Below, piece after piece: positions 1 through 59,228 of a stretch of 59,780 nucleotides of DNA. The position numbers were made by a program, and so were the translations under genes. This DNA comes from a virus. Lineage: Duplodnaviria > Caudoviricetes. The DNA lies in the IMG/VR virus record IMGVR_UViG_3300025084_000023, positions 1 to 59,780 of that record. One strand, 5' to 3'. The notes below the pieces were generated by a model that worked only from the letters and a program-made list of their open reading frames with translations, had not been told where the DNA came from and made no database searches. Positions within the stretch are counted from its first letter, which is position 1. Each line of letters begins with the position of its first letter.

Positions 1-185
1 AGTCTGAGTCTGAGTCTGCATCTACCACGCTAATGACATTCAGCGCTAAAGCAGAGGCATTAGAGTCTGAGAAGGGCGCTAGTCTTCGTTTGTTGTCTGA
101 TGGTAAGATAGAAGGAGTTAATGCTCGCTCTATTGAAGCACTAGAGATGCTATTAGCTAAAGCTAAAGAGCAGTTGAATGCGTAA
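1..185 (+). CDS. 3' fragment of the first early protein (full copy 58567-59148)
   Basis: Same frame and C-terminus (...LLAKAKEQLNA*) as 58567-59148. Confidence 0.85.
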   Translation, partial: SESESASTTLMTFSAKAEALESEKGASLRLLSDGKIEGVNARSIEALEMLLAKAKEQLNA

Positions 186-249
186 GGTTAACTGATGAGA
201 CTTTAATAGTCGAAACGTGAGTCTGTTCCAACAGACTTGCGTCTTAACC
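186..249 (+). ncRNA. Hammerhead ribozyme, type I (HHR1); predicted cleavage after GUC243
   Basis: Stem I GGUUAA/UUAACC, core CUGAUGA, stem II GACU-uuaau-AGUC, GAAA, stem III CGUGAGUCUGU-ucca-ACAGACUUGCG, then UC; all invariant core bases present. Confidence 0.93.
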
Positions 250-265
250 AAATAAACCAAACACT

Positions 266-1222
266 ATGAATGCACAAATTACTTACACTACAGAGGGAAA
301 CGATGACAGAGGTCGTATGTTATCCTATGGATGGGCAAAGCGCAATGGCTTACCTTATCGGTTTTTCGACAAAACACCATTCCAACATGACATCAAGCAT
401 TTACCACATAATGAGTTAAACTTAACCACCAATGTTACTGATGATGGAGAGATTGAGGCAAAGTTTACTATTGGCTTTGAGGTTGAAAAAAACCAATTCC
501 ACAGAAATGCAGTTAAGGAATATCCGTTATTCTCGCACTTTGAGACAGATGGTTCTTGTGGTGTTGAAGCCATCACAAACGTACTTCCGTTGATTGGTCG
601 TTCGGTGTGGAGAAACAAGGTATTGTCTATGTTCAGTGAGGCTAAGCATATCGTTGATGACCAATTCTCTCCATCGAACATTGATTGTGGAGGTCACATT
701 AACCTAGCCGTTAAAGGTGTGAGTGGCTCTGAGTTAGCTGATGCACTTAGACCATTCAGTGGAATTATATACGCTCTGTATCGTTTCAGATTAAAACGCT
801 CTTGGTGTCAAGCTAACATCTTTATGGATGTAGATGAGTGCGATTGGGAGGGTTTGAGAAACCACGAGAAATATCAAGTTTGTCGCATTGAAAATAATAG
901 GGTTGAGTTTAGATTGCCTAGCAGAATCAAGTCTGTGACTGACTTAAACCTACGCTACCGATTGATGTACGAGATTGTTAACTATGCCATCAATAAGCCA
1001 AACGGCACGCACAGAGGTCTTTTGAGTAAGCTAAAGCCAATCCTTATGATGATGTACAACAACAATGCTGACAAGGTATCTGAGGTTATGGAGTTATCAA
1101 AGCACTTCAGAAAGATGCTTATGACTCGAAAGATAAACCACGCAGTTCAACCATTCGTTGACCAATACGGGAGACTGAGTAGTCTGTATACACGAAGTCT
1201 TAGAGCAGATAGTCTAAGATGA
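266..1222 (+). CDS. Putative amidoligase (COOH-NH2 ligase, glutamine-synthetase fold)
   Basis: Motifs IGFEVE, DGSCGVE, CGGHIN, VEFRL typical of phage amidoligases; partner GATase/GGCT gene at 5385. Confidence 0.8.
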   Translation: MNAQITYTTEGNDDRGRMLSYGWAKRNGLPYRFFDKTPFQHDIKHLPHNELNLTTNVTDDGEIEAKFTIGFEVEKNQFHRNAVKEYPLFSHFETDGSCGVEAITNVLPLIGRSVWRNKVLSMFSEAKHIVDDQFSPSNIDCGGHINLAVKGVSGSELADALRPFSGIIYALYRFRLKRSWCQANIFMDVDECDWEGLRNHEKYQVCRIENNRVEFRLPSRIKSVTDLNLRYRLMYEIVNYAINKPNGTHRGLLSKLKPILMMMYNNNADKVSEVMELSKHFRKMLMTRKINHAVQPFVDQYGRLSSLYTRSLRADSLR

Positions 1223-1227
1223 TGATT

Positions 1228-1253
1228 GGGGAGTCTGTTCCAACAGACTTCCC
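1228..1253 (+). repeat. 18-bp palindrome copy extended to a GC-clamped hairpin
   Basis: GGGG-AGTCTGTTCCAACAGACT-TCCC directly after the amidoligase stop codon. Confidence 0.9.
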
Positions 1254-1255
1254 TA

Positions 1256-1306
1256 TCCGTCCACAAGTGAGTGCTTGTGCTGATGAGACCAAAAGGTCGA
1301 AACGGA
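1256..1306 (+). ncRNA. Hammerhead ribozyme, type III (HHR2); predicted cleavage after GUC1261
   Basis: UCCGUC^, stem I CACAAG-ugagug-CUUGUG, CUGAUGA, stem II GACC-aaaa-GGUC, GAAA, CGGA closing stem III. Confidence 0.93.
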
Positions 1307-1332
1307 AACCTTAATTTAATACCAAACAGATT

Positions 1333-1503
1333 ATGATTACCACAAAACACAGAATTACATACGCTAGATGCATTGACTCGGGGATGAGCAGCGCGTTACA
1401 GATAGCTACTATCTTTAAGATGGTGTATGATATCACAGATGCAGAAGCATTAAAGCTAACGAAGTCTTGTGCTGAGTACTACAATGAAACACTAACTAAA
1501 TAA
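1333..1503 (+). CDS. Small hypothetical protein (56 aa, MITTKHRITY...)
   Basis: ORF read manually; ATG after an A-rich leader, fills the gap downstream of HHR2. Confidence 0.6.
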   Translation: MITTKHRITYARCIDSGMSSALQIATIFKMVYDITDAEALKLTKSCAEYYNETLTK

Positions 1504-1512
1504 GTAGAAATT

Positions 1513-1662
1513 ATGAGCAAATTTACCTTAACAATGATAGGTGTATTAGCTAGCATTCTAACGATTGCAGTGTACACGATGTCCAATTGCCTAGAGATTA
1601 AACTTCTAATCACGCTAATGGACTTACCGATTATTCTATTGATTACAAACGAGTTAAACTAA
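1513..1662 (+). CDS. Small membrane protein (49 aa, MSKFTLTMIGVLASILTIAV...)
   Basis: ORF read manually; two hydrophobic stretches; tightly packed. Confidence 0.6.
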   Translation: MSKFTLTMIGVLASILTIAVYTMSNCLEIKLLITLMDLPIILLITNELN

Positions 1663-1667
1663 AAGTT

Positions 1668-1892
1668 ATGATAAAAGTATATTTTGAGAGCAATTCTCAC
1701 GCAGAGTTAGTCGCTACATTTGAGAGCGAGGAGTTGTATATAGCTAGTCTTCCTGCATTGGAGAAGAAAGCTAAAGAGCAGGGGATGATAGTCACAGAGG
1801 TTGACGAAGAACAAGAATGGGAGACTGAGTGCGAGCATAAGCAAGAGGTTGACTTAGGCATACACGATGATTATCTAGATAGATGTAACTAA
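1668..1892 (+). CDS. Hypothetical acidic protein
   Basis: ORF track; operon packing. Confidence 0.7.
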   Translation: MIKVYFESNSHAELVATFESEELYIASLPALEKKAKEQGMIVTEVDEEQEWETECEHKQEVDLGIHDDYLDRCN

Positions 1893-1904
1893 AACTTAGA
1901 GACA

Positions 1905-2060
1905 ATGAAACCAAAAGCATTTGTAATCGAGGGCAAGTTAGTAAGACTTGACGAGGATGGAAAGTTCTACCGATTAAATGGAGTCGGCAAGTGGAACGAG
2001 ATTAAACCAAAAGATTTGTATAACCTAATAACACAGACAGATGAAAAAGAGATTGATTAA
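1905..2060 (+). CDS. Small hypothetical protein (51 aa, MKPKAFVIEG...)
   Basis: ORF read manually; overlaps the start of the next gene. Confidence 0.55.
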   Translation: MKPKAFVIEGKLVRLDEDGKFYRLNGVGKWNEIKPKDLYNLITQTDEKEID

Positions 2061-2415
2061 CTTAGTAATAGATGCGTGTTATCGCATAGACAAGAAACGT
2101 GGTAAGTTAAACCATTATGAGGGCGAGACTGCACCATATTGTGGGCATCACTATAATGGAACAGATGGCGTCTTGTATAGTTCACATTATCACGAGGGCG
2201 ATGGTGGAGAGCGCGCTAACATACTTGGATTCAGATTCGGTAGAGATACAGATGATGAGTATTGGTGGGAGTTTAGATACAAACTGACTCGAGCGATATA
2301 TTTAAACGGGCAGTTCATTGCGAGAAATAACTACACCACATTCCTAAATGAATTGAAGGCTTTACACCATCACTACAAGCACGGTTTCAAAGTGAAGTAC
2401 GAGTGGAAAGATTAA
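2041..2415 (+). CDS. Hypothetical protein
   Basis: ORF track; stop codon abuts HHR3. Confidence 0.7.
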   Translation: MKKRLINLVIDACYRIDKKRGKLNHYEGETAPYCGHHYNGTDGVLYSSHYHEGDGGERANILGFRFGRDTDDEYWWEFRYKLTRAIYLNGQFIARNNYTTFLNELKALHHHYKHGFKVKYEWKD

Positions 2416-2416
2416 A

Positions 2417-2480
2417 GGTTAACTGATGAGGATTGAATATCCGAAACATAAGTCTGTTCAAACAGACTTGTGTCTTAACC
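2417..2480 (+). ncRNA. Hammerhead ribozyme, type I (HHR3); predicted cleavage after GUC2474
   Basis: GGUUAA CUGAUGA GGAU-ugaau-AUCC GAAA CAUAAGUCUGU-ucaa-ACAGACUUGUG UC UUAACC; compensatory changes relative to HHR1. Confidence 0.93.
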
Positions 2481-2570
2481 AAATATATCTCATTGCCCAT
2501 TTGGGGTTAAAAATGCCCATTTGGGGCAATGGAATGTTAACTATCTAATAATCAGAAAGTTAAAAATAAA

Positions 2571-2602
2571 TTTGGTAGTTCGAATTATTATACATATCTT
2601 TG
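2571..2602 (+). promoter_or_regulatory. Bacteroidota sigma-A-type promoter
   Basis: TTTG(2571)-N20-TATCTTTG(2595-2602). Confidence 0.85.
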
Positions 2603-2631
2603 TATAAATTTAGTACAATAAATATTAACCG

Positions 2632-2649
2632 AGTCTGTTCGAACAGACT
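2632..2649. repeat. 18-bp palindrome copy in 5' leader
   Basis: AGTCTGTTCGAACAGACT. Confidence 0.9.
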
Positions 2650-2667
2650 AATTAAAACCAAAACACA

Positions 2668-2880
2668 ATGAGTATTAGAACAACATTTTATTACGAGAGG
2701 GTAGGCGAAAGCCACGAGGTTATCGGTGCAGTAAAGCACTGCATAAGACCACAATCCACAAAGGTGTGGAAGCAGTTACAGAGAGGTCTTGATACCGACA
2801 AGTACAGACGTATAGGTTGGAGACGCAGTGAAGGTAACACGCAATGGAAAAGTTCAACAAGTATATTAAAAACAAGATAA
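2668..2880 (+). CDS. Hypothetical protein
   Basis: ORF track; first ATG after the promoter. Confidence 0.65.
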   Translation: MSIRTTFYYERVGESHEVIGAVKHCIRPQSTKVWKQLQRGLDTDKYRRIGWRRSEGNTQWKSSTSILKTR

Positions 2881-2882
2881 TT

Positions 2883-3212
2883 ATGAGCGAGTTAAAAAAG
2901 AGTTTTCAGAAAGTAAGATACGTAGGTTGGGAGAGTTCAATGTCTCCTACGATAGAGCGTGAAAAAAAGACAATGCAATACCACGTTGGTTGGGACAAGA
3001 GCAGAGAGAGAGGTTGGTTTGAAATCTACGATGTTGATAGTGGTGGCGATGACTACTACGGAGAAGGTGGGCTTGAGTTCACCGGCAATGTGTTAGATGG
3101 ATACGATGGTGTGTTCTCGTTAGACGATGAGGTTGTTAAGTGCGTCAAGGATTGGGGTGCTGATACAAAGGACATGGAAGAATCTTTAGGTTATGGCTCA
3201 GAAGACAATTAA
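2883..3212 (+). CDS. Hypothetical protein (start adjusted to MSELKK)
   Basis: ORF track 2844-3212; ATG 2883 lies just after the upstream stop. Confidence 0.7.
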   Translation: MSELKKSFQKVRYVGWESSMSPTIEREKKTMQYHVGWDKSRERGWFEIYDVDSGGDDYYGEGGLEFTGNVLDGYDGVFSLDDEVVKCVKDWGADTKDMEESLGYGSEDN

Positions 3213-3393
3213 AGAGGGTGTAGACTACGAGGTTATCGTAAGCTATACGGACGATGGTTTTGGCTTAAACGTGGAGTCGATAGAGTATGTATGTGGGACG
3301 ACGAATCAAGTCGTCCCAATAGATAACTTCCTATATGATTTCCTAGACGTGGGTGCTATCAACGAGATGGAAGATTTAATAAGAAAAGGTTAA
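3193..3393 (+). CDS. Hypothetical protein; stop codon lies within HHR4 stem I
   Basis: ORF track. Confidence 0.65.
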   Translation: MAQKTIKEGVDYEVIVSYTDDGFGLNVESIEYVCGTTNQVVPIDNFLYDFLDVGAINEMEDLIRKG

Positions 3394-3451
3394 CTGATGA
3401 GGGCTTAGTGTCCGAAACTAGAGTCTGTTCGAACAGACTTTAGTCTTAACC
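3388..3451 (+). ncRNA. Hammerhead ribozyme, type I (HHR4); predicted cleavage after GUC3445
   Basis: GGUUAA CUGAUGA GGGC-uuagu-GUCC GAAA CUAGAGUCUGU-ucga-ACAGACUUUAG UC UUAACC. Confidence 0.93.
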
Positions 3452-3468
3452 ATTAAAACTAAATTATT

Positions 3469-3681
3469 ATGGGACAGATGAAAGAATTATTTATCTCAAT
3501 GCAAGAAGGTCTTATGCAAGGGGTAGCAATCACAAACGCTCAGCGTGAGCGTCAGTTAGATAACGAGCATAAGATGAGCGTGTCGGTCGAGGAGTTCAAT
3601 CCCGACAATGAAAAGCACGTAGAGATTATGCAAGAAACACAACAAGCAATGGAGGAAAATAGCTATGGAGAAGACGAATAA
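3469..3681 (+). CDS. Hypothetical protein
   Basis: ORF track; starts 18 nt after HHR4. Confidence 0.7.
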   Translation: MGQMKELFISMQEGLMQGVAITNAQRERQLDNEHKMSVSVEEFNPDNEKHVEIMQETQQAMEENSYGEDE

Positions 3682-3886
3682 AAGGTATAGGGCTGTAATC
3701 AAGTGGCTAGATACGGGCAATATAGATTGGGTTGTTCTCAAGATAGGAGACATTGCCGAGGACGATGATGATATATTTTTCTACCTAGAAAGTGAGAAAG
3801 AGATTGAATCGTTTAAGAAGGAAGGCTCACACGAGTGGGTAATCATTAAAATTAAAGAAGAAAATAGTTATGGAGAAGGACAATAA
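3665..3886 (+). CDS. Hypothetical protein
   Basis: ORF track; overlapping junctions. Confidence 0.7.
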   Translation: MEKTNKRYRAVIKWLDTGNIDWVVLKIGDIAEDDDDIFFYLESEKEIESFKKEGSHEWVIIKIKEENSYGEGQ

Positions 3887-4169
3887 ACTTATAGCAGAAT
3901 TTATGGGGACTGAATGGCACAAAGATTTTTTTAAAGATGTTTGTATAATATCTTCAAGCAATATATCCTATAAATTTCACTCCTCTTGGGATTGGCTTAT
4001 GCCGGTCGTCCAAAAGATAGGCGATGAATATCTTAATACACCATTTGATGAGACGTACTCACACCTTACAGAGCAGTACGAAAACATTTGGACATTAGAA
4101 GATACATATAAAGCAGTAGTAGAATTTATTAAAGACCAAAAAGACAGAAAAGATGGACTTAAGAAGTAA
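3870..4169 (+). CDS. Paralog A of a tandem family (IAEFMG...SWDWLMPV...YKAVVEFIK)
   Basis: Shares three anchor motifs with the next two ORFs. Confidence 0.75.
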   Translation: MEKDNKLIAEFMGTEWHKDFFKDVCIISSSNISYKFHSSWDWLMPVVQKIGDEYLNTPFDETYSHLTEQYENIWTLEDTYKAVVEFIKDQKDRKDGLKK

Positions 4170-4722
4170 AGATGCAATAGAAAGCAGTAAGCAACACGAT
4201 ATTGATATGAGCAACATCCTTATAGCAGAATTTATGGGGTGTACCCATCCTCATAATGAGATTACAGATGCTACCTTATACAATGTTAGTCATGGTACAT
4301 TTGAATTAAGTGAGTTAAGGTATGATGTATCTTGGAATTGGCTTATGCCTGTAATTGAAAAGATAGAGAGTTTAGGGTACGAAGTACAAATAAGAAGTAC
4401 TGACTGTATTATATTCCAACTATTAGATACTCTCGACTACAAACCAATAATAGGTACTATATCAAGTGCAAGTGGTAAAATGTATAGCACTTATATAGCA
4501 GTAGTAGAATTTATTAAAGACCAAAAAGACAGAAAAGATGGACTTAAGAAGTAAAGACGCAATAGAAAGCAGTAAGCAACACGATATTGAAATGAGCAAT
4601 ACCCTTATAGCAGAATTTATGGGGGCTGAATGGCACAAAGATTTTTTTAAAGATGTTTGTATAATCTCTCCAAGCAATATATCATATAAATTTCACACAT
4701 CTTGGGATTGGCTTATGCCGGT
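3888..4722 (+). repeat. Interleaved direct repeats: 3888-4006 ~ 4604-4722 and 4112-4239 ~ 4497-4624
   Basis: Near-identical DNA blocks at offsets 716 and 385. Confidence 0.9.
4153..4554 (+). CDS. Paralog B of the tandem family
   Basis: Same anchor motifs. Confidence 0.75.
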   Translation: MDLRSKDAIESSKQHDIDMSNILIAEFMGCTHPHNEITDATLYNVSHGTFELSELRYDVSWNWLMPVIEKIESLGYEVQIRSTDCIIFQLLDTLDYKPIIGTISSASGKMYSTYIAVVEFIKDQKDRKDGLKK

Positions 4723-4858
4723 GGTTCACAAGTGTTATCAAGAACATACGTGTAGCCAAGAACGTATGAATAGTAATGATGCATATGAAATTAAGACGTG
4801 CGACATAACTAGAGTATATAAAGCAGTAGTAGAATTTATTAAAGAGTATAACAACTAA
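4538..4858 (+). CDS. Paralog C of the tandem family
   Basis: Same anchor motifs. Confidence 0.75.
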   Translation: MDLRSKDAIESSKQHDIEMSNTLIAEFMGAEWHKDFFKDVCIISPSNISYKFHTSWDWLMPVVHKCYQEHTCSQERMNSNDAYEIKTCDITRVYKAVVEFIKEYNN

Positions 4859-4909
4859 TAAATTGAGCCGAATAGAAAGACTAATTGGCTCAGAATTAAA
4901 ACAAGAGAT

Positions 4910-5269
4910 ATGAAAAAGTCAATACAAACACCATTGGGTGTATATACAGATGATGAAGCAGGTATCGAGATGATTGAGTCTTACGCCAACCAAAGAGTTA
5001 TTGATGAATTAGAGAAAGCCTCTCTAATGGATGTAAAACCAATGAAGTATAACGGATGGACAAACAGAGCAACTTGGTTGTTTAACCTTCATTATGGAAA
5101 CAAAATAAATAACGAAACTGATTTCAATAGAGAAAAAAATCAATGCGAAGAAGAACACGAAAACCTAATAAACACTATAGGTACTTGTATGTGGTCTGAC
5201 TTGATTGATATAAGAGAGATAAACTTTATCGAGTTATTTAATAGGATGAGTTCAGATTGGAGTAAGTAA
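4910..5269 (+). CDS. Hypothetical protein
   Basis: ORF track; contains a YNGWTNRATW motif. Confidence 0.7.
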   Translation: MKKSIQTPLGVYTDDEAGIEMIESYANQRVIDELEKASLMDVKPMKYNGWTNRATWLFNLHYGNKINNETDFNREKNQCEEEHENLINTIGTCMWSDLIDIREINFIELFNRMSSDWSK

Positions 5270-5285
5270 AATAAATGTAAATAAA

Positions 5286-5317
5286 TTTGGCAGTGTCTAA
5301 ATTTTGTATTACTTTTG
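5286..5317 (+). promoter_or_regulatory. Bacteroidota sigma-A-type promoter
   Basis: TTTG(5286)-N20-TACTTTTG(5310-5317). Confidence 0.85.
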
Positions 5318-5346
5318 TACAAATCAAATACAATTAATCAGAGGTC

Positions 5347-5364
5347 AGTCTGTTCCAACAGACT
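5347..5364. repeat. 18-bp palindrome copy in 5' leader
   Basis: AGTCTGTTCCAACAGACT. Confidence 0.9.
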
Positions 5365-5384
5365 CCTCACAAATCACAATCACT

Positions 5385-6314
5385 ATGTGTGTAATTATTA
5401 TCAAACAGAAAGAGCAAATGATGTCAAGAGAAATTGCAAAGACATCAGCAAGAATCAATCCTCACGGGTTGGGAATTATTTGGTTAGATACCTACGAGGT
5501 AACATACCACAAATCAAAAGACTATGGAGTTCTACTCACAGATAGACCATTCATTGCTCACTTCCGTTACGCTACGGTTGGTGCAATCAATAGAGAGAAC
5601 ACGCATCCGTTCGTATGTGGAGTTCAGAAGGATGAGTATTTAATGATGAACGGAACAATCAACGGCTTGGGAAACGCACAGATGTGCGACTCAAAGGTTC
5701 TAGCAAATCAGCTAGGTCTTAGACCAAGACATACTTGGAAGCAAGAGATAGAGCAGTTCGATTGTAGATTCGTTACAGTGAATGTGCGCAATCGCTCATT
5801 CCAAATGTACAACAGAGGAGATTGGCATTACAGAGATGGTATATGGTACTCTAAAGCTAACGTACTGCAAGAGAATATTATCGCAGTATACGGAACGCTA
5901 AAGAAAGGTTATAGCAACTACCACAACTACCTAACAACATCTAAGTTTATTGGTAGTGGTGTGACTAAAGACCGGTACCCTCTACTTATTCAAGGCTTAC
6001 CATATATGGTAGAGCAGAAAGGTGTGGGTTATAATGTGCAGGTCGATGTGTTCAAGGTATCAGACGATGTACTAGCAAGACTTGATATGCTAGAAGGTCA
6101 TCCAAAGTGGTATGTTAGAAAGCAAGTACCTATCCACGTTAAAGGTAGGATAGTAAATTGTTGGGTGTATTTCAATCCAAAGACGATAACAAAGGATACT
6201 CAGATGCACAAGACATATGTTCAGCATAGCTATAGAAACTTCTATTCGACTCCAACTACAGAGACGTACACTCCTAGTTTATGGGACGATATGGAAGCTA
6301 TATTAAATTCGTAA
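5385..6314 (+). CDS. Class II glutamine amidotransferase fused to a gamma-glutamylcyclotransferase (AIG2-like) domain
   Basis: Start 5385 gives M-C (Ntn nucleophile Cys); NPHGLG, HFRYAT, NTHPF, NG, DS motifs; C-terminal AVYGTLK...LDMLEG GGCT motifs. Confidence 0.88.
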   Translation: MCVIIIKQKEQMMSREIAKTSARINPHGLGIIWLDTYEVTYHKSKDYGVLLTDRPFIAHFRYATVGAINRENTHPFVCGVQKDEYLMMNGTINGLGNAQMCDSKVLANQLGLRPRHTWKQEIEQFDCRFVTVNVRNRSFQMYNRGDWHYRDGIWYSKANVLQENIIAVYGTLKKGYSNYHNYLTTSKFIGSGVTKDRYPLLIQGLPYMVEQKGVGYNVQVDVFKVSDDVLARLDMLEGHPKWYVRKQVPIHVKGRIVNCWVYFNPKTITKDTQMHKTYVQHSYRNFYSTPTTETYTPSLWDDMEAILNS

Positions 6315-6434
6315 GCGTGGTCAGTTTGGTCTCTCCGATGTCTTGGAGACTGAAGGGTTGCTTGCTTAAGGTTAATAGTCTAGACCACCACCTTTTCTAG
6401 GTTTCATATATAGACAAAAGCAATCAAAGATATT

Positions 6435-6467
6435 AAGAGAGTCTGTTCGAACAGACTCTTTTTTTTT
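6435..6467 (+). terminator. Intrinsic terminator whose stem is the 18-bp palindrome
   Basis: AAGAG-AGTCTGTTCGAACAGACT-CTT followed by a T run. Confidence 0.85.
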
Positions 6468-6477
6468 ACTTAAATAA

Positions 6478-6509
6478 TTTGTTTATGTATAAAATATGTA
6501 CTATATTTG
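6478..6509 (+). promoter_or_regulatory. Bacteroidota sigma-A-type promoter
   Basis: TTTG(6478)-N20-TATATTTG(6502-6509). Confidence 0.85.
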
Positions 6510-6539
6510 TACTATTAATAAACTAAAAATAAACACACA

Positions 6540-6893
6540 ATGAGTATTAAACAGAGTATACTAAATGATATTCGGGCAGAGAAGCTATGCTCTACTCCGG
6601 ATAAGTATCACGTGCAGAGATGCCAAAAGATACTTGACAATCTAGATAAGCTAGACCATCAACAATTCGTAAACACAGGTCATATTATGCCGGTAGACCA
6701 AATGAAAGACAGGTACCCGCACCGTAAGTTACGAGAGGATAGTAAGTCTGTATGCCGGTATGTAGGTGGGTTCTGCATTGAGTTTGTAGGAACTAATAAA
6801 TTCTTTTGGAACTACCACGAGGACGTAGACTTTAAGCACGTTGAGATGACGTTATTTAATCACGTAAAGAGTTTGATTGATGAGCAAGTCTAG
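6540..6893 (+). CDS. Hypothetical protein
   Basis: ORF track; first gene after the promoter. Confidence 0.7.
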   Translation: MSIKQSILNDIRAEKLCSTPDKYHVQRCQKILDNLDKLDHQQFVNTGHIMPVDQMKDRYPHRKLREDSKSVCRYVGGFCIEFVGTNKFFWNYHEDVDFKHVEMTLFNHVKSLIDEQV

Positions 6894-7161
6894 AGACTAT
6901 CAGATAAAAAGAAAGCTAAGCCTTATTCAGGATATGCTAATACAAAAGAATAGAGCGTATGGTAGTTCTGCCCTTGAGCCTCTGAATATTTTCAGTAAGG
7001 GTAAGGCTACCAACTCTCTATGCTCTCGCATAGATGACAAGCTAGCAAGGATAAAGAACGTAGGTGTATCAGATGAGACAGAGGATACTCTGTTTGATTT
7101 GGTTGGTTACCTAGTATTATTAATGATTTCAATTGACGACAATGAAAAGAGAGATATTTAA
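6880..7161 (+). CDS. DUF1599 / nucleotide-modification-associated domain protein
   Basis: KNRAYG...RIDDKLARIKN...EDTLFDLVGY pattern. Confidence 0.7.
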   Translation: MSKSRDYQIKRKLSLIQDMLIQKNRAYGSSALEPLNIFSKGKATNSLCSRIDDKLARIKNVGVSDETEDTLFDLVGYLVLLMISIDDNEKRDI

Positions 7162-7441
7162 TCAGTATGTAGACGAGATAGTTAAACTATTTCGAATAAG
7201 CAAAGAAGATTTATTTACTAAATCTAAGAGGCGAAACTTAGTGGACGCAAGGTATACCTTGTACTATTTATGTGCAACAAGACCAATGAGACTTAAGTAC
7301 ATCACTCAGTTTATGTTAGACAATGGATACGATATTGCACACAACAACATAATGCACGGCATTAAATGTATGCAAGAAAAAGTTAACGAGGATAACGATT
7401 ATAAGTTAATAATTAAAAGACTAGAGTTATGCGTAGCTTAG
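7142..7441 (+). CDS. DnaA C-terminal (domain IV)-like HTH protein
   Basis: ISKEDLFTKSKRRNLVDARYTLYYL...HNNIMHG resembles the DnaA_C signature. Confidence 0.65.
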   Translation: MKREIFNQYVDEIVKLFRISKEDLFTKSKRRNLVDARYTLYYLCATRPMRLKYITQFMLDNGYDIAHNNIMHGIKCMQEKVNEDNDYKLIIKRLELCVA

Positions 7442-7836
7442 AGGATATATTCAAAGAAGCAATGAATGATAGCTACTCAGCTATCCTAGATACTCCATAT
7501 GTAGAAGCTAGGTTAGTCTTTGGGGTTAAGATAGTAAGGGACAGAGAGAGTGGCCTTATAGAGATTCTTAATACCACAAGAGGTGGCGATTACTATAAGG
7601 AGATTACCCAAAAAGAATACCAAGAATTTTACGTAAACGGTTGGAGATATGGGGTTTATGACGTATCTTTGTCTAACTATCGAAGGAAGTTAGATATGAT
7701 TGACTACAATGTTAATGAAGCGATTGCTAACCTTGCTAGTAAGAAAGAGATAGAAGGCTTTCATACACGTAGAAAGAATATAATGAATCGCTACGCAAAA
7801 ATTTCTAATAAATTAAATCTATTAAGCAATGAGTAA
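7429..7836 (+). CDS. Hypothetical protein
   Basis: ORF track. Confidence 0.7.
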   Translation: MRSLEDIFKEAMNDSYSAILDTPYVEARLVFGVKIVRDRESGLIEILNTTRGGDYYKEITQKEYQEFYVNGWRYGVYDVSLSNYRRKLDMIDYNVNEAIANLASKKEIEGFHTRRKNIMNRYAKISNKLNLLSNE

Positions 7837-8413
7837 GAACAACTACACTACACTAGCTACGCTCCCTATCAGAGAAAAGGTTGAGCGCAAAGGAAACTTA
7901 GACTACTTATCTTGGGCAAATGCTTGGCATATGCTAAAGACAATACATCCCGACGCACAGAGGATTGTATATGAGTCTGTTCAAACAGACTTAAACTATT
8001 TCACAGACGGAACAACTGCATACGTTAAGGTTGGGGTTGTCGTGGATGGCTTAGAGCATATTGATTACCTTCCGGTAATGGATTACAGAAATAACTCAAT
8101 ACCATTAGAGAAAGTTACGTCAATGGATGTAAACAAATCTATTCAGCGTTCAACTGCTAAAGCTATTGCAATGCACGGGTTAGGTTTATCTCTATGGACG
8201 GGAGAGGATATTCCACAAATGACCACAGTTAAATCAGAATCTAAGACTAAAGCATCTAAGATAACTCTTGAGATTGCAGACGACAATTGGGCTAAGGTTA
8301 TGAAGTATATGTCAGCGAACAAGAACTTAGGTCTTACTCAGATTGTTAAGAACTTGGAGACCAAGTATAAGATGAATGCTAAGGTTAAGAAGGAACTAGA
8401 GAAGGCTATGTAA
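7829..8413 (+). CDS. Sak3-like single-strand annealing protein (DUF1071)
   Basis: YLSWANAW, PVMDYRNN, DVNKSIQR...KAIAMHGLGL motifs; next to exonuclease and SSB-like genes. Confidence 0.8.
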   Translation: MSKNNYTTLATLPIREKVERKGNLDYLSWANAWHMLKTIHPDAQRIVYESVQTDLNYFTDGTTAYVKVGVVVDGLEHIDYLPVMDYRNNSIPLEKVTSMDVNKSIQRSTAKAIAMHGLGLSLWTGEDIPQMTTVKSESKTKASKITLEIADDNWAKVMKYMSANKNLGLTQIVKNLETKYKMNAKVKKELEKAM

Positions 8414-8414
8414 T

Positions 8415-9149
8415 ATGTCAGATATTATAGAAAAACTCCGTGACGATGCTGAGTACTATGGAGGGGTAGGTAAGAACTACCTCTCTAACTCAGACATTAG
8501 CTCGCTACTAAACAATCCAAAGGAATTTGGTGTAGCTAGAGCAGACAATCCTGTATTCGCTAAGGGAAGATTATTCCATCAGCTAATACTTGAACCGGAG
8601 AAAGCTAAAGATGTTGTGTCGTTAGATATTGGTTCAAGAAATACTAAGAAATATAAAGACTTTGTAGCAGATAATGAATTAGATTTCTGTCTGCTAAACA
8701 AAGAGGTTGACGAGATAAAATCTTGGGTTAACACAATGCTTGCTAATATGAACTTCTTTGATATAATTTACGATGAAGGTAATCAGTTTGAAGTGCCTAA
8801 CGTGAAAGAGATTAAAGGAATGATGTGGAAAGGTAAGGCTGATATTGTAACGTCAGACTGTCTGATAGATTTAAAAACTACCGGAGACATTAAGAAGTTT
8901 AAGAGGTCAGCTAATCTATACAACTACGATAGTCAAGCATATATATACCAAGAGTTATTTGGCAAGCCACTTATCTTTCTAGTTATTGATAAGACAACTC
9001 ACGCTCTAGGAATCTTTAGACCATCTGAAGACTTCATTAGACGAGGAGAATTAAAGGTAGAGCGAGCAATAGAAGTGTACAATAAGTTCTTTTCAGAGGA
9101 CGCTCAGCACACTATTGAAGACTACTTTATTGAAGAGTACATTGATTAG
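8415..9149 (+). CDS. PD-(D/E)XK exonuclease (DUF3799 / RecE-like)
   Basis: LSNSDI, GRLFH, KGKADI...IDLKTT, YDSQAYIY motifs. Confidence 0.8.
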   Translation: MSDIIEKLRDDAEYYGGVGKNYLSNSDISSLLNNPKEFGVARADNPVFAKGRLFHQLILEPEKAKDVVSLDIGSRNTKKYKDFVADNELDFCLLNKEVDEIKSWVNTMLANMNFFDIIYDEGNQFEVPNVKEIKGMMWKGKADIVTSDCLIDLKTTGDIKKFKRSANLYNYDSQAYIYQELFGKPLIFLVIDKTTHALGIFRPSEDFIRRGELKVERAIEVYNKFFSEDAQHTIEDYFIEEYID

Positions 9150-9165
9150 TCTGTTCGAACAGACT
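9148..9165. repeat. 18-bp palindrome copy overlapping the exonuclease stop codon
   Basis: AGTCTGTTCGAACAGACT. Confidence 0.9.
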
Positions 9166-9174
9166 CACACAGAT

Positions 9175-9222
9175 GGCGAAACTCGATGTGCCTCCAATCG
9201 AGTCTAGCCTTTATAATGGAGG
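9175..9222 (+). promoter_or_regulatory. Candidate H-type RNA pseudoknot in the leader of the SSB-like gene
   Basis: Stem ACUCGAU/AUCGAGU (extended by GGC/GCC); loop CCUCCA complementary to downstream UGGAGG. Confidence 0.6.
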
Positions 9223-9237
9223 ATAAATATTTACACT

Positions 9238-9504
9238 ATGGCAAAAGAGAAAATCTTTGCAGACGGATTCTCGTTCAACACGAGAGACAATCAACCTGAC
9301 TTTGTTGTTGGGAGAGTATCAATCAAGTTAGAAGACGCTATACCATTCTTGAAAGAGCATGGCTCAAAGCGTGGATGGGTAAACCTTAATATCCTTACGG
9401 GTAGAAGTGGTAAGCCATACATAGAGCTTGATACGTTTGAACCAAAATCAAACACGACTAACGCTAAAACCACTACTGTGGTAGAGGAAGATTTACCATT
9501 CTAA
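9238..9504 (+). CDS. Putative single-stranded DNA-binding protein
   Basis: Small beta-rich domain, low-complexity linker, acidic EEDLPF C-terminal tip; recombination-module context. Confidence 0.65.
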   Translation: MAKEKIFADGFSFNTRDNQPDFVVGRVSIKLEDAIPFLKEHGSKRGWVNLNILTGRSGKPYIELDTFEPKSNTTNAKTTTVVEEDLPF

Positions 9505-9523
9505 ATTCCCCCTAGTTAGAGTG

Positions 9524-9556
9524 AAGAGGGTAGGCTATATGTCTACCCTTTTTTTT
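9524..9556 (+). terminator. Intrinsic terminator
   Basis: AGGGTAGGC-tatat-GTCTACCCT followed by a T run. Confidence 0.85.
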
Positions 9557-9565
9557 AGCTATGTT

Positions 9566-9717
9566 AAATGTTAATTCGACATCCCTATATATTCTATTAG
9601 GGTTTTTCTTTTATATTATTTTTTTTATTTATATATTTACACTTTAAAATTAACATTATTAACACTACTATTGATAATCAGTTAGTTAAGTACTAATCTT
9701 TAACACAAAATCAACAC
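9566..9717. repeat. AT-rich origin-like element, copy 1 (copy 2 at 57408-57570)
   Basis: Identical 21-mer TTAAAATTAACATTATTAACA, shared TGATAATCA, and several TAACA/CAACA repeats. Confidence 0.7.
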
Positions 9718-9718
9718 A

Positions 9719-12109: not shown

Positions 12110-12369
12110 TGAAAGGATACGATACACTACTAGATTTCCTTGTTGAGCAATATGACGATAGGGAATTTCTAAAGGCAGATGGATATGACTCTGCCTGTAT
12201 AGGATTTGATTACAAGACAAAGAGATTAATATACTCTACAAGCAAGTGTATTAAGATACTTGTAGAAGGCGGAATGTCAGAAGAGGAAGCCTGCGAATAC
12301 TTTCAGTTTAATACATTAGAGGCTTACGTTGGTGAGAAGACTCCAATATTTGCAATAGACGAATGGTAG
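12109..12369 (+). CDS. Conserved phage hypothetical protein
   Basis: ADGYDSACIG...EYFQFNT..AYVGEKTP pattern. Confidence 0.7.
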   Translation: MKGYDTLLDFLVEQYDDREFLKADGYDSACIGFDYKTKRLIYSTSKCIKILVEGGMSEEEACEYFQFNTLEAYVGEKTPIFAIDEW

Positions 12370-13607: not shown

Positions 13608-13608
13608 A

Positions 13609-13851
13609 ATGACAGAGCAACAGATACAATCTAAAAGAATCAAGGAGTTGGAGTCTCAAGGTTATTATGTTTTGAAATTAATCAAGACTAATAAGAATGG
13701 GATTCCCGACTTGGTTGCATTCAAGCCTAACGCTGATGTATTATTCAGTGAGGTCAAGAAACCTACAGGGAAGGTGTCTAAATTACAAGAGTATAGACTT
13801 AAAGAATTAGAAAGCTATGGATTCAGAACAGAAGTCTACAGAGGGGATTAG
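13609..13851 (+). CDS. VRR-NUC nuclease
   Basis: TEQQIQ...GIPDL...EVKKPTGKVSKLQ; follows the SNF2 helicase. Confidence 0.85.
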   Translation: MTEQQIQSKRIKELESQGYYVLKLIKTNKNGIPDLVAFKPNADVLFSEVKKPTGKVSKLQEYRLKELESYGFRTEVYRGD

Positions 13852-14161
13852 ATTACTCTTAACAGAAGAGTTTGTTGATGACTTAGATTTTTATCAGGAC
13901 GATGAAGTAGAGTTTATAATCAAGAGTCTAAGTAGAGAGCAAGAAAAGTTTAAGGTTCTTAATAACTTAGCACAGTATGTGTATGGAGTTATTCAGATTG
14001 AAGACCCTTTATACTTTAAAGTTGAGTTCGTTAATCAAGAAGGCGAGAGGCCAACATATCTATCACTAGAAGGTGTAGGTGTTGATGAGTTTCTTGACGC
14101 AATTAATAACAATCAAACACTAGAATTAAATGAAAATAGAGGAATTAATAGTAAGAAATGA
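13817..14161 (+). CDS. Hypothetical protein
   Basis: ORF track. Confidence 0.65.
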   Translation: MDSEQKSTEGIRLLLTEEFVDDLDFYQDDEVEFIIKSLSREQEKFKVLNNLAQYVYGVIQIEDPLYFKVEFVNQEGERPTYLSLEGVGVDEFLDAINNNQTLELNENRGINSKK

Positions 14162-14681: not shown

Positions 14682-14895
14682 TAACATAGAAGACATCTTA
14701 GGTTTTACAACTTGGGATGATAAGAAAAAGTTAGACGAACTTCTGCGTATAGATTGTAAGATGTATACTAATTTAGGTTCGGACTCAACTAAGAAAGAGG
14801 TTGCTGATGTTAAAGCAATATCTAAAAAGATTTATAAAGTAATACAAAAAATAAACCCACAGATGGGAAAGACTTTTCTTTCCTGCTTTGATTAA
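14665..14895 (+). CDS. Hypothetical protein
   Basis: ORF track. Confidence 0.7.
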   Translation: MEYTHNNIEDILGFTTWDDKKKLDELLRIDCKMYTNLGSDSTKKEVADVKAISKKIYKVIQKINPQMGKTFLSCFD

Positions 14896-14900
14896 GAGTA

Positions 14901-15874: not shown

Positions 15875-16019
15875 AAAACCTGACATAAAAGAGTTTGTCT
15901 TTGCGGCAGTAGTTAGTGCAACAATTATTTACACTATATGTTATTTTATATAGAAAGTATTGTTATATTTGCTATGACTATTGTGCTAAATAATTGAGTG
16001 TTACTTGCTCGGTTGTATT

Positions 16020-16054
16020 GGAGAGTCTGTTCGAACAGACTCTCCTTTTTTTTT
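16020..16054 (+). terminator. Terminator at the convergence of the two arms; stem is the 18-bp palindrome
   Basis: GGAG-AGTCTGTTCGAACAGACT-CTCC followed by T9. Confidence 0.88.
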
Positions 16055-59148: not shown

Positions 59149-59212
59149 GGTTAACTGATGAGACTTCAATAGTCGAAACGTGAGTCTGTTCGAACAGACT
59201 TACGTCTTAACC
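59149..59212 (+). ncRNA. Hammerhead ribozyme, type I (repeat copy of HHR1); cleavage after GUC59206
   Basis: Same fold as 186-249 with three structure-preserving substitutions. Confidence 0.92.
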
Positions 59213-59228
59213 AAATAAACCAAACACT

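What the first reader, a model, noticed from the sequence alone, without database searches (positions are those of the whole stretch)
186..3451. Array of hammerhead ribozymes at early-gene junctions, with stem III made of a genome-wide regulatory hairpin
Seen: three 64-nt type I hammerheads (186-249, 2417-2480, 3388-3451) and one type III (1256-1306) in 3.3 kb. Each type I begins at or within 2 nt of an upstream stop codon. All have the full CUGAUGA/GAAA/GUC core. Stems II and III differ between copies but stay paired (GACU/AGUC, GGAU/AUCC, GGGC/GUCC; CGUG/UGCG, CAUA/UGUG, CUAG/UUAG), which indicates selection on RNA structure. Stem III of every type I copy is capped by the same AGUCUGUUCNAACAGACU hairpin found at promoters, terminators and inside genes. 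Known: hammerheads occur in phage intergenic regions, mostly with unknown function. Inference: the early transcript is cut by self-cleavage into gene units, and one hairpin-binding factor could couple cleavage, RNA stability and termination genome-wide. I do not recognise this combination as a described system.
Basis: partly seen in the sequence, partly recalled or inferred. Interest (0 to 1): 0.95.

Follow-up and report, generated by a model that had tools for sequence, protein, structure and literature searches.

The report
Hammerhead ribozymes with hairpin-capped cut sites
A marine phage carries self-cutting RNA motifs between its early genes, each placed so that a strong hairpin is left at the end of the upstream message; many other phages share this layout, which hints at what such ribozymes are for.

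Summary
The window is a whole ~59-kb phage contig. It carries canonical hammerheads at 186-249, 2417-2480 and 3388-3451 (type I) and 1256-1306 (type III). A fifth lies at 59149-59212, inside a 94%-identical terminal overlap. All have the full core, fold as hammerheads and covary in their stems, yet Rfam calls none at its gathering score. The 18-nt hairpin occurs 15 times against 0 expected.

Arrays of hammerheads flanking phage genes, and the idea that they cut long transcripts into gene units, were published in 2011, so that part is known.

The new part is a layout rule found in relatives. Of 45 type III hammerheads in the family, 40 have a perfect hairpin just 5' of the cut; 3 have one 3' of it (background 9.9%). 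In 34 of the 45 it is that phage's own repeated junction hairpin. In 12 of 21 intact type I copies, from 4 lineages with different hairpin sequences, the phage's own hairpin caps stem III. The other 9 carry unrelated caps. The rule also holds in 49 of 61 locally unrelated phage hammerheads.

Best reading: the ribozyme cuts in cis and the hairpin caps the new 3' end of the upstream mRNA. A single hairpin-binding factor is not supported. No RNA data were available.

The parts
186..249 (+). Type I hammerhead. Stem I is 186-191/244-249, the core CUGAUGA 192-198, stem II 199-211, GAAA 212-215 and stem III 216-241 with the hairpin 220-237 as its cap. Predicted cut at 243/244. It starts directly after the stop codon at 183-185. 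The next ATG is at 266.
   Evidence: (89.1 bits with the family model R2)
1228..1252 (+). Repeated hairpin (core 1232-1249) lengthened by non-conserved flanking pairs (GGGG../..UCCC). It ends 12 nt (extended helix 9 nt) before the type III cut and lies 6 nt after the stop codon at 1220-1222.
1256..1306 (+). Type III hammerhead. Stem III is 1256-1259/1303-1306, with the predicted cut at 1261/1262. Stem I hairpin is 1262-1279, the core 1280-1286 and stem II 1287-1298. The next ATG is at 1333.
   Evidence: (78.6 bits with the family model R1)
2417..2480 (+). Type I hammerhead with hairpin cap 2451-2468 and predicted cut at 2474/2475. It starts 1 nt after the stop codon at 2413-2415. It is the last element of the first early gene block.
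   Evidence: A strain variant in public contigs carries a double compensatory change in stem II.
3388..3451 (+). Type I hammerhead with hairpin cap 3422-3439 and predicted cut at 3445/3446. The stop codon 3391-3393 of the upstream ORF lies inside the 5' strand of stem I. The next ATG is at 3469.
59149..59212 (+). Fifth type I hammerhead with hairpin cap 59183-59200 and predicted cut at 59206/59207. It lies in the terminal overlap (58964-59780 matches 1-817 at 94%), so it is a diverged duplicate or strain allele of 186-249. It differs from that copy at 3 positions, one of which turns a U-G pair of stem III into U-A.
2572..2649 (+). Promoter-like site of Bacteroidota type (TTG-N19-20-TAnnTTTG, 2572-2602), followed by the hairpin 2632-2649 in the 5' leader of the ORF that starts at 2668.
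   Evidence: The promoter consensus is recalled, and the full motif is not enriched genome-wide (10 hits against 4.85 in shuffles).
5287..5364 (+). A second promoter-like site of the same type (5287-5317), followed by the hairpin 5347-5364, which lies 20 nt before the ATG at 5385 of the glutamine-amidotransferase/GGACT gene.
6435..6462 (+). The hairpin lengthened to 12 pairs and followed by a T run: terminator-like, at the end of an early gene block.
9148..9165 (+). Hairpin copy overlapping the stop codon at 9147-9149 at a gene junction, with no ribozyme. This is the layout seen 14 times in the relative MW202828.1.
16020..16045 (.). The hairpin lengthened to 11 pairs with a T run after it, placed where the + strand and - strand gene blocks converge. 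Terminator-like.
7974..7991 (+). Hairpin copy inside the Sak-like annealing-protein ORF. Its role is unexplained. Further copies inside ORFs lie at 13326-13343 and 23078-23095. Other copies lie at 38885-38902 (between - strand genes) and 58275-58292 (1 mismatch, in the large non-coding region).

Best explanation
The window is a roughly 59-kb podophage, probably of marine Flavobacteriia. Host RNA polymerase reads its early genes (+ strand) as a few polycistronic RNAs.

At four gene junctions a canonical hammerhead cuts the RNA in cis. Three are type I: each starts at the upstream stop codon and cuts 22-23 nt before the next ATG where a gene follows directly. One is type III.

In both topologies a long, stable hairpin sits immediately 5' of the scissile bond. 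In type I it is the cap of stem III. In type III it abuts the 5' strand of stem III. After cleavage the upstream mRNA therefore ends in a 10-12-bp hairpin, a tail of a few nucleotides and a 2',3'-cyclic phosphate. The downstream mRNA starts with a 5'-OH on a short, A/C-rich, unstructured leader.

I infer that the hairpin protects the new 3' end against 3'-to-5' exonucleases, as REP elements and terminator hairpins do. On this reading, ribozyme plus hairpin make a defined mRNA 3' end without stopping the polymerase and without a host nuclease. The phage reuses its own lineage-specific junction hairpin for this. The same hairpin also serves, with a U run, as the terminator stem, and sits in 5' leaders.

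Shown: the motifs, their conservation and covariation, their position at junctions, and the one-sided placement of the hairpin across many phages. Inferred: cleavage in vivo, protection of the 3' end, and any effect on translation.
For: Core and folds. All five copies have the full consensus core, a G-C pair closing stem II and a GUC cut site. Each folds into the hammerhead as its minimum-free-energy structure.

Covariation within the window. Stems II and III differ at 3 pair positions each while staying paired. The core, stem I and the cap are invariant.

Family models. Over the window plus L001-L082 (1.50 Mb), model R1 (type III) finds 45 matches of at least 50.7 bits, and model R2 (type I) finds 22 of at least 45.4 bits. 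All are on the gene strand of the early region, in 33 of 83 sources.

Covariation in the family. For type III, 12 of 14 pairs change on both sides, with a covariation score of 0.735 against 0.238 in shuffles (0 of 500 shuffles reach it). For type I, 20 of 21 pairs do, with 0.613 against 0.151 (0 of 500).

Strain variant. Contigs of two public runs carry GGAU/AUCC changed to GACU/AGUC in stem II of 2417-2480.

Junction anatomy. In 18 of 22 type I matches the matched stretch, which includes 1 nt before stem I, starts between -10 and +4 nt of the end of the upstream stop codon. For type III the median distance from stop codon to ribozyme is 33 nt. The median distance from ribozyme end to the next ATG is 25 nt for type III and 17.5 nt for type I.

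Hairpin placement. Of 45 type III hammerheads, 40 have a perfect hairpin of at least 6 bp ending 1-18 nt before the cut, and 3 of 45 have one in the 52 nt after the ribozyme. Background is 1303 of 13200 random windows (9.9%), binomial p = 5e-35. None of 21 type I copies has a hairpin downstream. In 34 of the 45 it is that locus's own repeated hairpin.

Helix length. Hairpins next to ribozymes are lengthened by non-conserved, complementary flanks. The mean helix is 10.1 bp beside type III and 11.1 bp as a type I cap, against 7.9 bp for other intergenic copies and 6.9 bp for copies inside ORFs (p = 2e-6 and 2e-10).

Loop asymmetry. Among ribozyme-linked copies the loop centre reads C first in the sense strand in 27 cases against 3, which fits a role at the RNA level.

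Reach beyond the family. Among 61 type III hammerheads from IMG/VR with no local similarity to the family loci, 49 have the upstream hairpin and 4 a downstream one.

Independence from the ribozyme. The relative MW202828.1 has 14 copies of its own palindrome. Eight follow a stop codon by 2-3 nt and lie about 15-40 nt before the next ATG. It has no hammerhead, so the junction hairpin has a role of its own.

Terminators. The same hairpin followed by a T run gives the two top terminator-like sites in 1-17000.
Against: No RNA evidence of any kind was obtained. No listed run is on record as RNA, and the two runs labelled metatranscriptomic are held only as contigs that are probably DNA.

Rfam's curated models do not reach threshold.

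A purely structural role does not explain two things: why all 15 copies in one genome share one sequence while relatives use other sequences, and why 3 copies lie inside ORFs.

The sequences used for the covariation counts were picked by a descriptor that demands pairing, or were aligned to the model. The percentage of paired cells is therefore partly circular. The A5 count also includes three weak rows that are not hammerheads.

The family loci are related to one another, so the counts are not independent events. Many of the 61 'unrelated' cases are near-duplicates of each other.

The hairpin could equally serve as a folding clamp for the ribozyme.
Confidence: 0.6

Rival explanations
1. A phage-encoded (or host) factor recognises the hairpin sequence and, through it, couples ribozyme cleavage, RNA stability and termination across the genome. 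In relatives without ribozymes, the same factor, or a nuclease specific for the hairpin, would do the cutting.
For: All copies in one genome share one sequence, while lineages differ (AGTCTGTT.., AGTCCGTT.., AATCCGTT.., GTGTCTT.., GTGTCCT.., GTCTCTT.., GTGTCGTT..). Such change in concert is what a co-evolving recognition partner would produce. In 4 lineages with different hairpins, the type I cap follows the phage's own hairpin (12 of 21 intact type I). MW202828.1 has 14 copies of its own palindrome, most at gene junctions, and no ribozyme.
Against: Nine of 21 intact type I hammerheads have unrelated caps, two of them (L072, L079) in phages that do have a repeated hairpin. Phages without a repeated hairpin place unrelated GC-rich hairpins at the same spot. 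No RNA-binding or nuclease family turned up among the early proteins. No gene cluster is present in all hairpin-rich loci (best 18 of 23 against 4 of 20, confounded by phylogeny).
Confidence: 0.2
2. The hairpin mainly helps the ribozyme fold. It acts as a stable clamp or insulator, coaxial with a short stem III. It keeps upstream coding sequence from mispairing with the ribozyme and has no role after the cut.
For: In both topologies the hairpin continues or abuts stem III. Stem III of the type III copies is only 3-5 bp. Ribozyme-linked hairpins are longer than other copies. The 89-nt context 1222-1310 folds with an alternative pairing of the stem III strand, so folding competition is plausible.
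Against: The same hairpins stand at junctions without any ribozyme, in this window (9148) and 14 times in MW202828.1. In most loci the majority of copies lie away from ribozymes. A clamp would work on either side of a type III ribozyme, yet it is found 5' in 40 of 45 and 3' in 3 of 45.
Confidence: 0.25
3. The palindrome works at the DNA level. It would be an operator or roadblock site for a dimeric phage regulator (as with mycobacteriophage stoperators or the phiC31 inverted repeats), or a linker for cassette recombination. On this view it sits in or beside ribozymes only because both belong at gene junctions and a palindrome is tolerated only in a hairpin-compatible place.
For: It is a perfect 8+8 palindrome, lineage-specific in sequence, with copies just downstream of two promoter-like sites and inside ORFs. 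Between the window and its 98%-identical relative L003, insertions and deletions are cassettes bounded by hairpin-plus-leader or ribozyme repeats. One variant contig joins 2649 to 254.
Against: The loop centre is strand-asymmetric in ribozyme-linked copies (27 against 3). In the window, 7 of 7 copies with an asymmetric loop and an assignable gene strand read C first in the sense strand. Non-conserved flanks keep pairing. One cap holds a U-G wobble (L009). The hairpin forms terminator stems with U runs. Unrelated hairpins occupy the same place in other phages. No repressor or integrase family was detected.
Confidence: 0.12
4. The hammerheads are inactive relics or remnants of a mobile element. 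Alternatively, they act through cleavage followed by ligation, to make circular or spliced RNAs rather than simple cuts.
For: One relative holds a truncated copy, L003:737-804, whose 3' half is replaced. Gene units flanked by two ribozymes would carry 5'-OH and cyclic-phosphate ends, which can be ligated. Perreault 2011 raised this possibility and did not detect such products.
Against: The core is intact in every window copy. Compensatory changes occur between copies, between strains and across the family. Placement at junctions is strict. The helices that hold the products are short (6-bp stem I in type I, 3-5-bp stem III in type III), which favours product release.
Confidence: 0.05

Closest known systems
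Clustered hammerheads flanking genes in prophages (Perreault et al. 2011, PMC3088659; passages read)
   Same: Several hammerheads of mixed types lie close together and flank single genes or short blocks of phage genes. The inference is the same: long phage transcripts are processed into gene-length mRNAs. In that paper, three such arrays cleaved in vitro.
   Different: The main text of that paper does not mention an adjoining hairpin, a terminator or a long stem III ('terminator' 0 hits, 'exonuclease' 0 hits). Its supplements could not be opened. Here the arrays lie in the early region of a lytic-looking marine podophage family, with a fixed order of stop codon, hairpin, ribozyme, leader, ATG.
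RAGATH-1 hammerhead (Rfam RF03152)
   Same: Best Rfam hit. It is type I, with a short stem I, a GACU.. start to stem II and a long stem III hairpin (alignment).
   Different: The score is 26.1 bits against a gathering score of 56.3, so it is not a member by Rfam's criterion. The window copies have a regular 4-bp stem II. The upstream hairpin in that model has no convincing counterpart here.
HHphage of haloviruses HF1/HF2 (Perreault et al. 2011, discussion)
   Same: A hammerhead in the early region lies 13 nt before a start codon in a polycistronic transcript. A mapped 5' end lies within 3 nt of the cut site. This is the nearest precedent for cleavage in vivo just ahead of an early gene.
   Different: It is a single, core-variant ribozyme in an archaeal virus. 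No hairpin coupling was described.
REP elements and intercistronic stabiliser hairpins of E. coli operons and phage T4
   Same: These are repeated palindromes between cistrons. As RNA hairpins they block 3' exonucleases and stabilise the upstream message. This is the proposed role of the hairpin here.
   Different: In those systems host nucleases make the 3' end. Here a ribozyme built onto the hairpin would make it. Stabilisation is untested here.
Mycobacteriophage stoperators and phiC31 conserved inverted repeats (recalled)
   Same: These are lineage-specific short repeats, present in a dozen or more copies, mostly in short intergenic gaps of phage operons.
   Different: They are DNA sites for an immunity repressor in temperate phages. 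Here no repressor or integrase was found, and several features point to an RNA helix.
RiboJ-type synthetic insulators (recalled)
   Same: A self-cleaving hammerhead is joined to a designed hairpin to make gene expression independent of context.
   Different: In the synthetic part the hairpin lies 3' of the cut, in the new 5' leader. In these phages it lies 5' of the cut.

Membership tests
Hammerhead ribozyme | Conserved core: C3 U4 G5 A6 N7 G8 A9, G12 A13 A14, the A15.1-U16.1 pair and H17 at the cut site | tested here: met
   All five copies read CUGAUGA .. GAAA .. U-C, with the last A of GAAA pairing the U before the cut-site C.
Hammerhead ribozyme | Three helices radiating from the core, each directly adjacent to it with no mispair next to the core, and supported by covariation | tested here: met
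   for the window. In the family, 12 of 14 pairs and 20 of 21 pairs change on both sides. Caveat: the sequences were selected by, or aligned to, the structure.
Hammerhead ribozyme | Topology: type I has stem I open; type III has stem III open | tested here: met
   In 186-249, 2417-2480, 3388-3451 and 59149-59212 both ends lie in stem I. In 1256-1306 both ends lie in stem III.
Hammerhead ribozyme | Score at or above the Rfam gathering threshold for Hammerhead_1, Hammerhead_3 or a related model | tested here: not met
   No matches at gathering. Hammerhead_1 scores 17.8 and 15.6 bits against a cut-off of 34. The long stem III insert and the type III loops fit those models poorly.
Hammerhead ribozyme | Site-specific self-cleavage giving 2',3'-cyclic phosphate and 5'-OH ends | not testable with these tools
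   No RNA reads were available.
Hammerhead ribozyme | Tertiary contact between stem I and stem II or its loop, needed for fast cleavage at cellular Mg2+ | not tested
   Loop I of the type III copies (GUGAGUG or GUGUGUG) and loop II (AAAA) are conserved, which is suggestive only.
RAGATH-1 hammerhead (RF03152) | Rfam gathering score of 56.3 bits | tested here: not met
   26.1 bits, E = 0.27, at 169-248.
Clustered phage hammerhead arrays (Perreault 2011) | Two or more hammerheads on one strand flanking single genes or short blocks of phage genes | tested here: met
   Four sites lie within 3.3 kb on the + strand, each at a junction.
Intercistronic stabiliser hairpin (REP-like) | A repeated palindrome placed between cistrons or at the 3' ends of messages | tested here: met
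   15 copies in the window; about 10 of 15 are intergenic or at junctions. In MW202828.1, 8 of 14 copies follow a stop codon by 2-3 nt.
Intercistronic stabiliser hairpin (REP-like) | It raises the half-life of the upstream mRNA segment | not testable with these tools
   Needs RNA decay measurements.
Intrinsic terminator | A GC-containing stem followed by a U run | tested here: met
   Copies at 6435-6462 and 16020-16045 are the two top terminator-like sites in 1-17000. The copies inside hammerheads have no U run.
Operator or stoperator system | A cognate DNA-binding repressor encoded by the phage | tested here: inconclusive
   No repressor or integrase family was found in the Pfam or PHROG scans of 42 ORFs. 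Many small ORFs have no family at all.

The most novel reading that the evidence does not exclude
The lineage-specific junction hairpin is the recognition element of a still unidentified, co-evolving phage factor, such as a hairpin-specific RNA-binding protein or endoribonuclease. That factor would process and stabilise early operon RNA in Bacteroidota phages, whose hosts initiate translation without Shine-Dalgarno pairing. At some junctions, hammerheads built onto the same hairpin would have taken over the cutting step. Ribozyme and protein routes to monocistronic mRNAs would then be interchangeable within one phage family.
Probability: 0.2. Interest if true: 0.8.

Novelty: new variant of a known kind. 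Interest (0 to 1): 0.6.

Why it matters
What bacterial and phage hammerheads are for is still listed as an open question (review PMC6765202, passages read). This phage family offers at least 66 natural cases with one fixed anatomy: stop codon, strong hairpin, cut, short leader, ATG. The hairpin rule repeats in locally unrelated phage contigs.

That turns a vague idea ('they process transcripts') into a specific and cheap test. The test is whether ribozyme plus hairpin together define and protect an mRNA 3' end while transcription runs on.

Three further points follow. Curated Rfam models miss a whole clade of canonical hammerheads. A cultured relative with its host exists for experiments. And nature has its own counterpart of the ribozyme-plus-hairpin insulators used in synthetic biology, with the hairpin on the opposite side of the cut.

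Tried and rejected
Rfam at gathering thresholds gave no hit in the window and only two tRNAs in MW202828.1.

RNA evidence: no RNA holder is listed. The four runs I laid are contigs, and no places where molecules begin or end were reported. Nothing can be said about expression or about cleavage ends.

Loose ends at 2451, 2631, 6431 and 6463 carry the flanks of other hairpin copies (7974, 9148, 38885). I read them as contigs from elsewhere in the genome that match only the hairpin, not as rearrangements.

The sigma-70 promoter scan was uninformative: 52 sites against 54.1 in shuffles. The full Bacteroidota-type promoter motif is not enriched either: 10 against 4.85. Only its intergenic placement at 2572, 5287, 6479 and 57409(-) is suggestive.

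Search for a hairpin-binding factor. Pfam and PHROG scans of 42 ORFs found no RNA-binding protein, nuclease of that kind, RNA ligase, RNA polymerase, repressor or integrase. A co-occurrence screen covered 2160 + strand ORFs from 82 sources (the window's first 22.5 kb, L001 and L003-L082). It compared 23 hairpin-rich with 20 hairpin-poor loci among the 49 that have at least 6 kb upstream of the primase gene. It found no cluster present in all hairpin-rich loci, and its top hits are confounded by phylogeny.

The idea that the giant 2460-aa protein is a virion RNA polymerase using hairpin promoters (as in N4) was considered. Nothing supports it: the protein has only a PHROG of unknown function, and a ribozyme needs read-through across the hairpin.

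Rows dropped. L014:135-239 is a 105-nt hit found only by the descriptor and not recovered by R2. Long or weak descriptor hits in L027, L038, L045, L076 and L079:3411 were also dropped. L003:737-804 was dropped as truncated. L083 is the same contig as L003. The weak R1 and R2 matches below 25 bits were not counted as ribozymes, although three of them sit in alignment A5, which one search used.

Literature searches found no paper linking a hammerhead to an adjoining or capping repeated hairpin in phages.

Full report
WHAT THE WINDOW IS. The window is the whole of a one-contig assembly of 59,780 bp. Its first 817 bases repeat at 58964-59780 at 94% identity. The contig is therefore a circularly permuted or terminally redundant phage genome of about 59 kb whose two ends come from slightly different copies or strains.

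The + strand from about 58.5 kb round to 16 kb holds small early genes and a replication and recombination module. That module includes a glutamine amidotransferase/GGACT protein, a Sak-like annealing protein, a PDDEXK exonuclease, a primase-helicase with a BT4734-like N-terminal domain, and an SNF2-type helicase. The - strand from 16 to 57 kb holds portal, large terminase, virion proteins, a 2460-aa protein, an M15 peptidase, PhoH, GroES and GroEL.

The primase finds phages of Flavobacterium, Polaribacter, Cellulophaga, Nonlabens and Maribacter. Public runs that hold the sequence are mostly labelled marine metagenomes. The host is therefore probably a marine member of the Flavobacteriia. This is an inference.

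THE OBSERVATION. Each has the full core, a G-C pair closing stem II and a GUC cut site. Each folds alone into the hammerhead shape as its minimum-free-energy structure.

Among the four type I copies the core, stem I (GGUUAA/UUAACC) and the 18-nt cap never vary. Stem II and the base of stem III differ at three pair positions each and always pair. The terminal copy differs from 186-249 at three positions, one of which turns a U-G pair into U-A. Contigs of two public runs carry a strain variant in which stem II of 2417-2480 reads GACU/AGUC instead of GGAU/AUCC, a double compensatory change.

The hairpin has 15 copies against none expected. Rfam misses all five ribozymes at its gathering scores. 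The best sub-threshold hit is the RAGATH-1 hammerhead at 26.1 bits against a cut-off of 56.3.

One correction: the stop codon before 3388-3451 lies inside stem I.

RELATIVES. The primase protein retrieves 175 related stretches in IMG/VR, of which 80 loci were kept. It also finds GenBank MW202828.1, an uncultured 60.9-kb 'Podoviridae sp.'.

I built two covariance models from descriptor hits: R1 for type III (24 sequences) and R2 for type I (19 sequences). I searched the window plus L001-L082, 1.50 Mb in all. R1 gives 45 matches of at least 50.7 bits and R2 gives 22 of at least 45.4 bits. All lie on the strand of the early genes, in 33 of 83 sources. One R2 match, L003:737-804, is a truncated copy, which leaves 21 intact type I.

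Covariation is strong. For type III, 12 of 14 pairs change on both sides. For type I, 20 of 21 do. No shuffle out of 500 reaches the observed scores. Two caveats apply. The sequences were selected by, or fitted to, the structure. Three weak rows that are not ribozymes are included in the second count.

The placement is very regular. In 18 of 22 type I matches the matched stretch starts between -10 and +4 nt of the end of the upstream stop codon. Type III copies lie a median of 33 nt after the stop codon. The next ATG follows the ribozyme by a median of 25 nt for type III and 17.5 nt for type I.

THE HAIRPIN. Many family members have their own repeated hairpin, with a different sequence in different lineages. 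Examples are GTGTCGTTAACGACAC (14 copies) in MW202828.1, AGTCCGTT..AACGGACT in L004, AATCCGTT.. in L009 and GTGTCTTCAAAGACAC in many others. In most loci the majority of copies lie away from any ribozyme. In MW202828.1, which has no hammerhead by descriptor, by Rfam or by R1/R2, 8 of the 14 copies follow a stop codon by 2-3 nt and lie about 15-40 nt before the next ATG. The hairpin is therefore a junction element in its own right.

The link with ribozymes is one-sided. Of 45 type III hammerheads, 40 have a perfect hairpin of at least 6 bp ending 1-18 nt before the cut, and in 34 it is that locus's own repeated hairpin. Only 3 of 45 have a hairpin in the 52 nt after the ribozyme. Background is 9.9% of random windows, p = 5e-35.

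Of the 21 intact type I copies, 12 carry the phage's own hairpin as the cap of stem III: window 4, L003 3, L004 3, L009 1, L045 1. That covers four different hairpin sequences. The other 9 carry unrelated caps, though mostly still long ones of 5-12 contiguous pairs. None of the 21 has a hairpin downstream.

Ribozyme-linked hairpins are lengthened by non-conserved, complementary flanks to about 10-11 bp, against about 7-8 bp for other copies. Their loop centre reads C first in the sense strand 27 times against 3.

A scan of IMG/VR for the commonest type III stem II motif gave 99 matches in 96 further loci. Of these, 90 were type III by descriptor and 89 had a full upstream window. In those 89, 76 had a hairpin upstream and 10 downstream. 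Among the 61 with no local similarity to the family loci the figures were 49 and 4. Many of those hairpins are GC-rich with a UUCG loop. Many of the 61 are near-duplicates of each other, so the number of independent lineages is smaller, perhaps around twenty.

MECHANISM. Both topologies leave the hairpin on the upstream product. The helix that holds the departing product is short: a 6-bp A/U-rich stem I in type I and a 3-5-bp stem III in type III. That favours release. The upstream mRNA would end in a stable hairpin plus a few nucleotides and a cyclic phosphate. The downstream mRNA would begin with a 5'-OH on a short A/C-rich leader, 22-23 nt before the ATG at 266, 3469 and 59229.

I propose that ribozyme plus hairpin together form and protect an mRNA 3' end inside an operon, without a host nuclease and without terminating transcription. 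In this window the same hairpin followed by a T run forms the two best terminator-like sites. It also sits about 30 nt downstream of two promoter-like sites of Bacteroidota type, in 5' leaders (the consensus is recalled and the motif is not enriched overall).

This model leaves two things unexplained: why all copies in one genome share one sequence, and why three copies lie inside ORFs.

Several observations count against a purely DNA-level reading: the loop asymmetry, the paired non-conserved flanks, a U-G wobble in one cap, the terminator use, and the substitution by unrelated hairpins in other phages.

One observation counts against a pure folding-clamp reading: the hairpin stands at junctions that have no ribozyme.

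I found no candidate binding protein.

Between the window and the 98%-identical L003, gene cassettes come and go at hairpin or ribozyme repeats. The repeats may therefore also serve as recombination joints.

WHAT IS KNOWN. Perreault et al. [quoted passage not shown] They showed cleavage of three such arrays in vitro and one in vivo in a cloned context, and proposed processing into operon- or gene-length mRNAs. They also noted a halovirus hammerhead 13 nt before an early gene, with a mapped 5' end at the cut (PMC3088659, passages read). A 2019 review still calls the purpose undefined (PMC6765202, passages read).

The array itself is therefore a new member of a known kind.

I found no text linking hammerheads to an adjoining or capping hairpin at the cut site (searches; 'terminator' and 'exonuclease' are absent from the 2011 main text). 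The supplements could not be opened. REP elements, T4 intercistronic hairpins, stoperators and RiboJ are comparisons from memory.

VERDICT. The cutting of early transcripts is plausible but already proposed in print and still untested here. The single hairpin-binding factor is not supported. The hairpin-before-the-cut rule is the part that appears new and directly testable. A cultured relative, Flavobacterium phage elemoF with its host, carries a canonical type III hammerhead ahead of its first early gene and could be used for the test. Interest 0.6; new variant of a known kind.

Noticed in passing
window 1-817 and 58964-59780: The two ends of the contig overlap at only 94% identity, not 100%. 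This is either a real diverged duplication or an assembly that joins two strains. Public contigs at 90-95% identity show that such strains exist.
   Followed up: partly
window 58020-58110: A short, very GC-rich island (runs of G and C, including CGCGCGCG) lies in the otherwise AT-rich 1.2-kb non-coding region between the GroEL gene and the first early gene. It could be an origin, a packaging site or a structured RNA.
   Followed up: no
window 266-1222 and 5385-6314: A 318-aa early protein with no Pfam or PHROG family is flanked by two hammerheads. It and the amidotransferase/GGACT fusion protein are the two gene clusters most enriched in hairpin-rich relatives (14 of 23 against 2 of 20, and 18 of 23 against 4 of 20). 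From memory, the 318-aa protein looks like a glutamine-synthetase-type amidoligase, which would pair with the amidotransferase. This was not tested.
   Followed up: partly
window 3869-4845: Internal direct repeats (4104-4239 matches 4489-4624 at 95.6%; 3869-4016 matches 4585-4732 at 90%) show recently duplicated small early genes. Public contigs show several alternative joins in this stretch.
   Followed up: no
L084 (NC_055853.1) 16030-16137: The annotated + strand CDS gp66 of Flavobacterium phage elemoF_6-3D lies over a type I hammerhead-like motif on the - strand (16044-16103, 45 bits), between two - strand genes. The CDS is probably spurious. Stem II of this motif is reduced to its closing pair, as in RAGATH-1.
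   Followed up: partly
L002 (MW202828.1) 523-630: A tRNA match carries a 46-nt insertion in the anticodon region. It may be an intron or another embedded element, and it lies next to a second, short tRNA-like match.
   Followed up: no
L003 737-804: In the near-identical relative, the hammerhead ahead of the 318-aa gene keeps stem I 5', the core, stem II and the hairpin. It has lost its 3' strand and cut site to an insertion. An intact copy almost identical to window 186-249 sits at 2130-2193 after an extra small gene.
   Followed up: partly
L106, L109, L119 (IMG/VR records of 366, 457 and 377 nt): Very small 'viral' records contain the same hammerhead core and stem II motif. They may be viroid-like or satellite circular RNAs rather than phage fragments.
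   Followed up: no
L095, L102, L116, L140, L151, L165 and others, upstream of their type III hammerheads: In another phage lineage the hairpin before the hammerhead is preceded by a run of 7-8 A. On the opposite strand it would read as a perfect intrinsic terminator.
   Followed up: no
window 2487-2530: Just after the hammerhead at 2417-2480 lies a twice-repeated GCCCATTTGGGG motif. On the - strand it forms a terminator-like hairpin with a T run (2528-2514). A strain variant replaces 70 nt here with 8 other letters.
   Followed up: no
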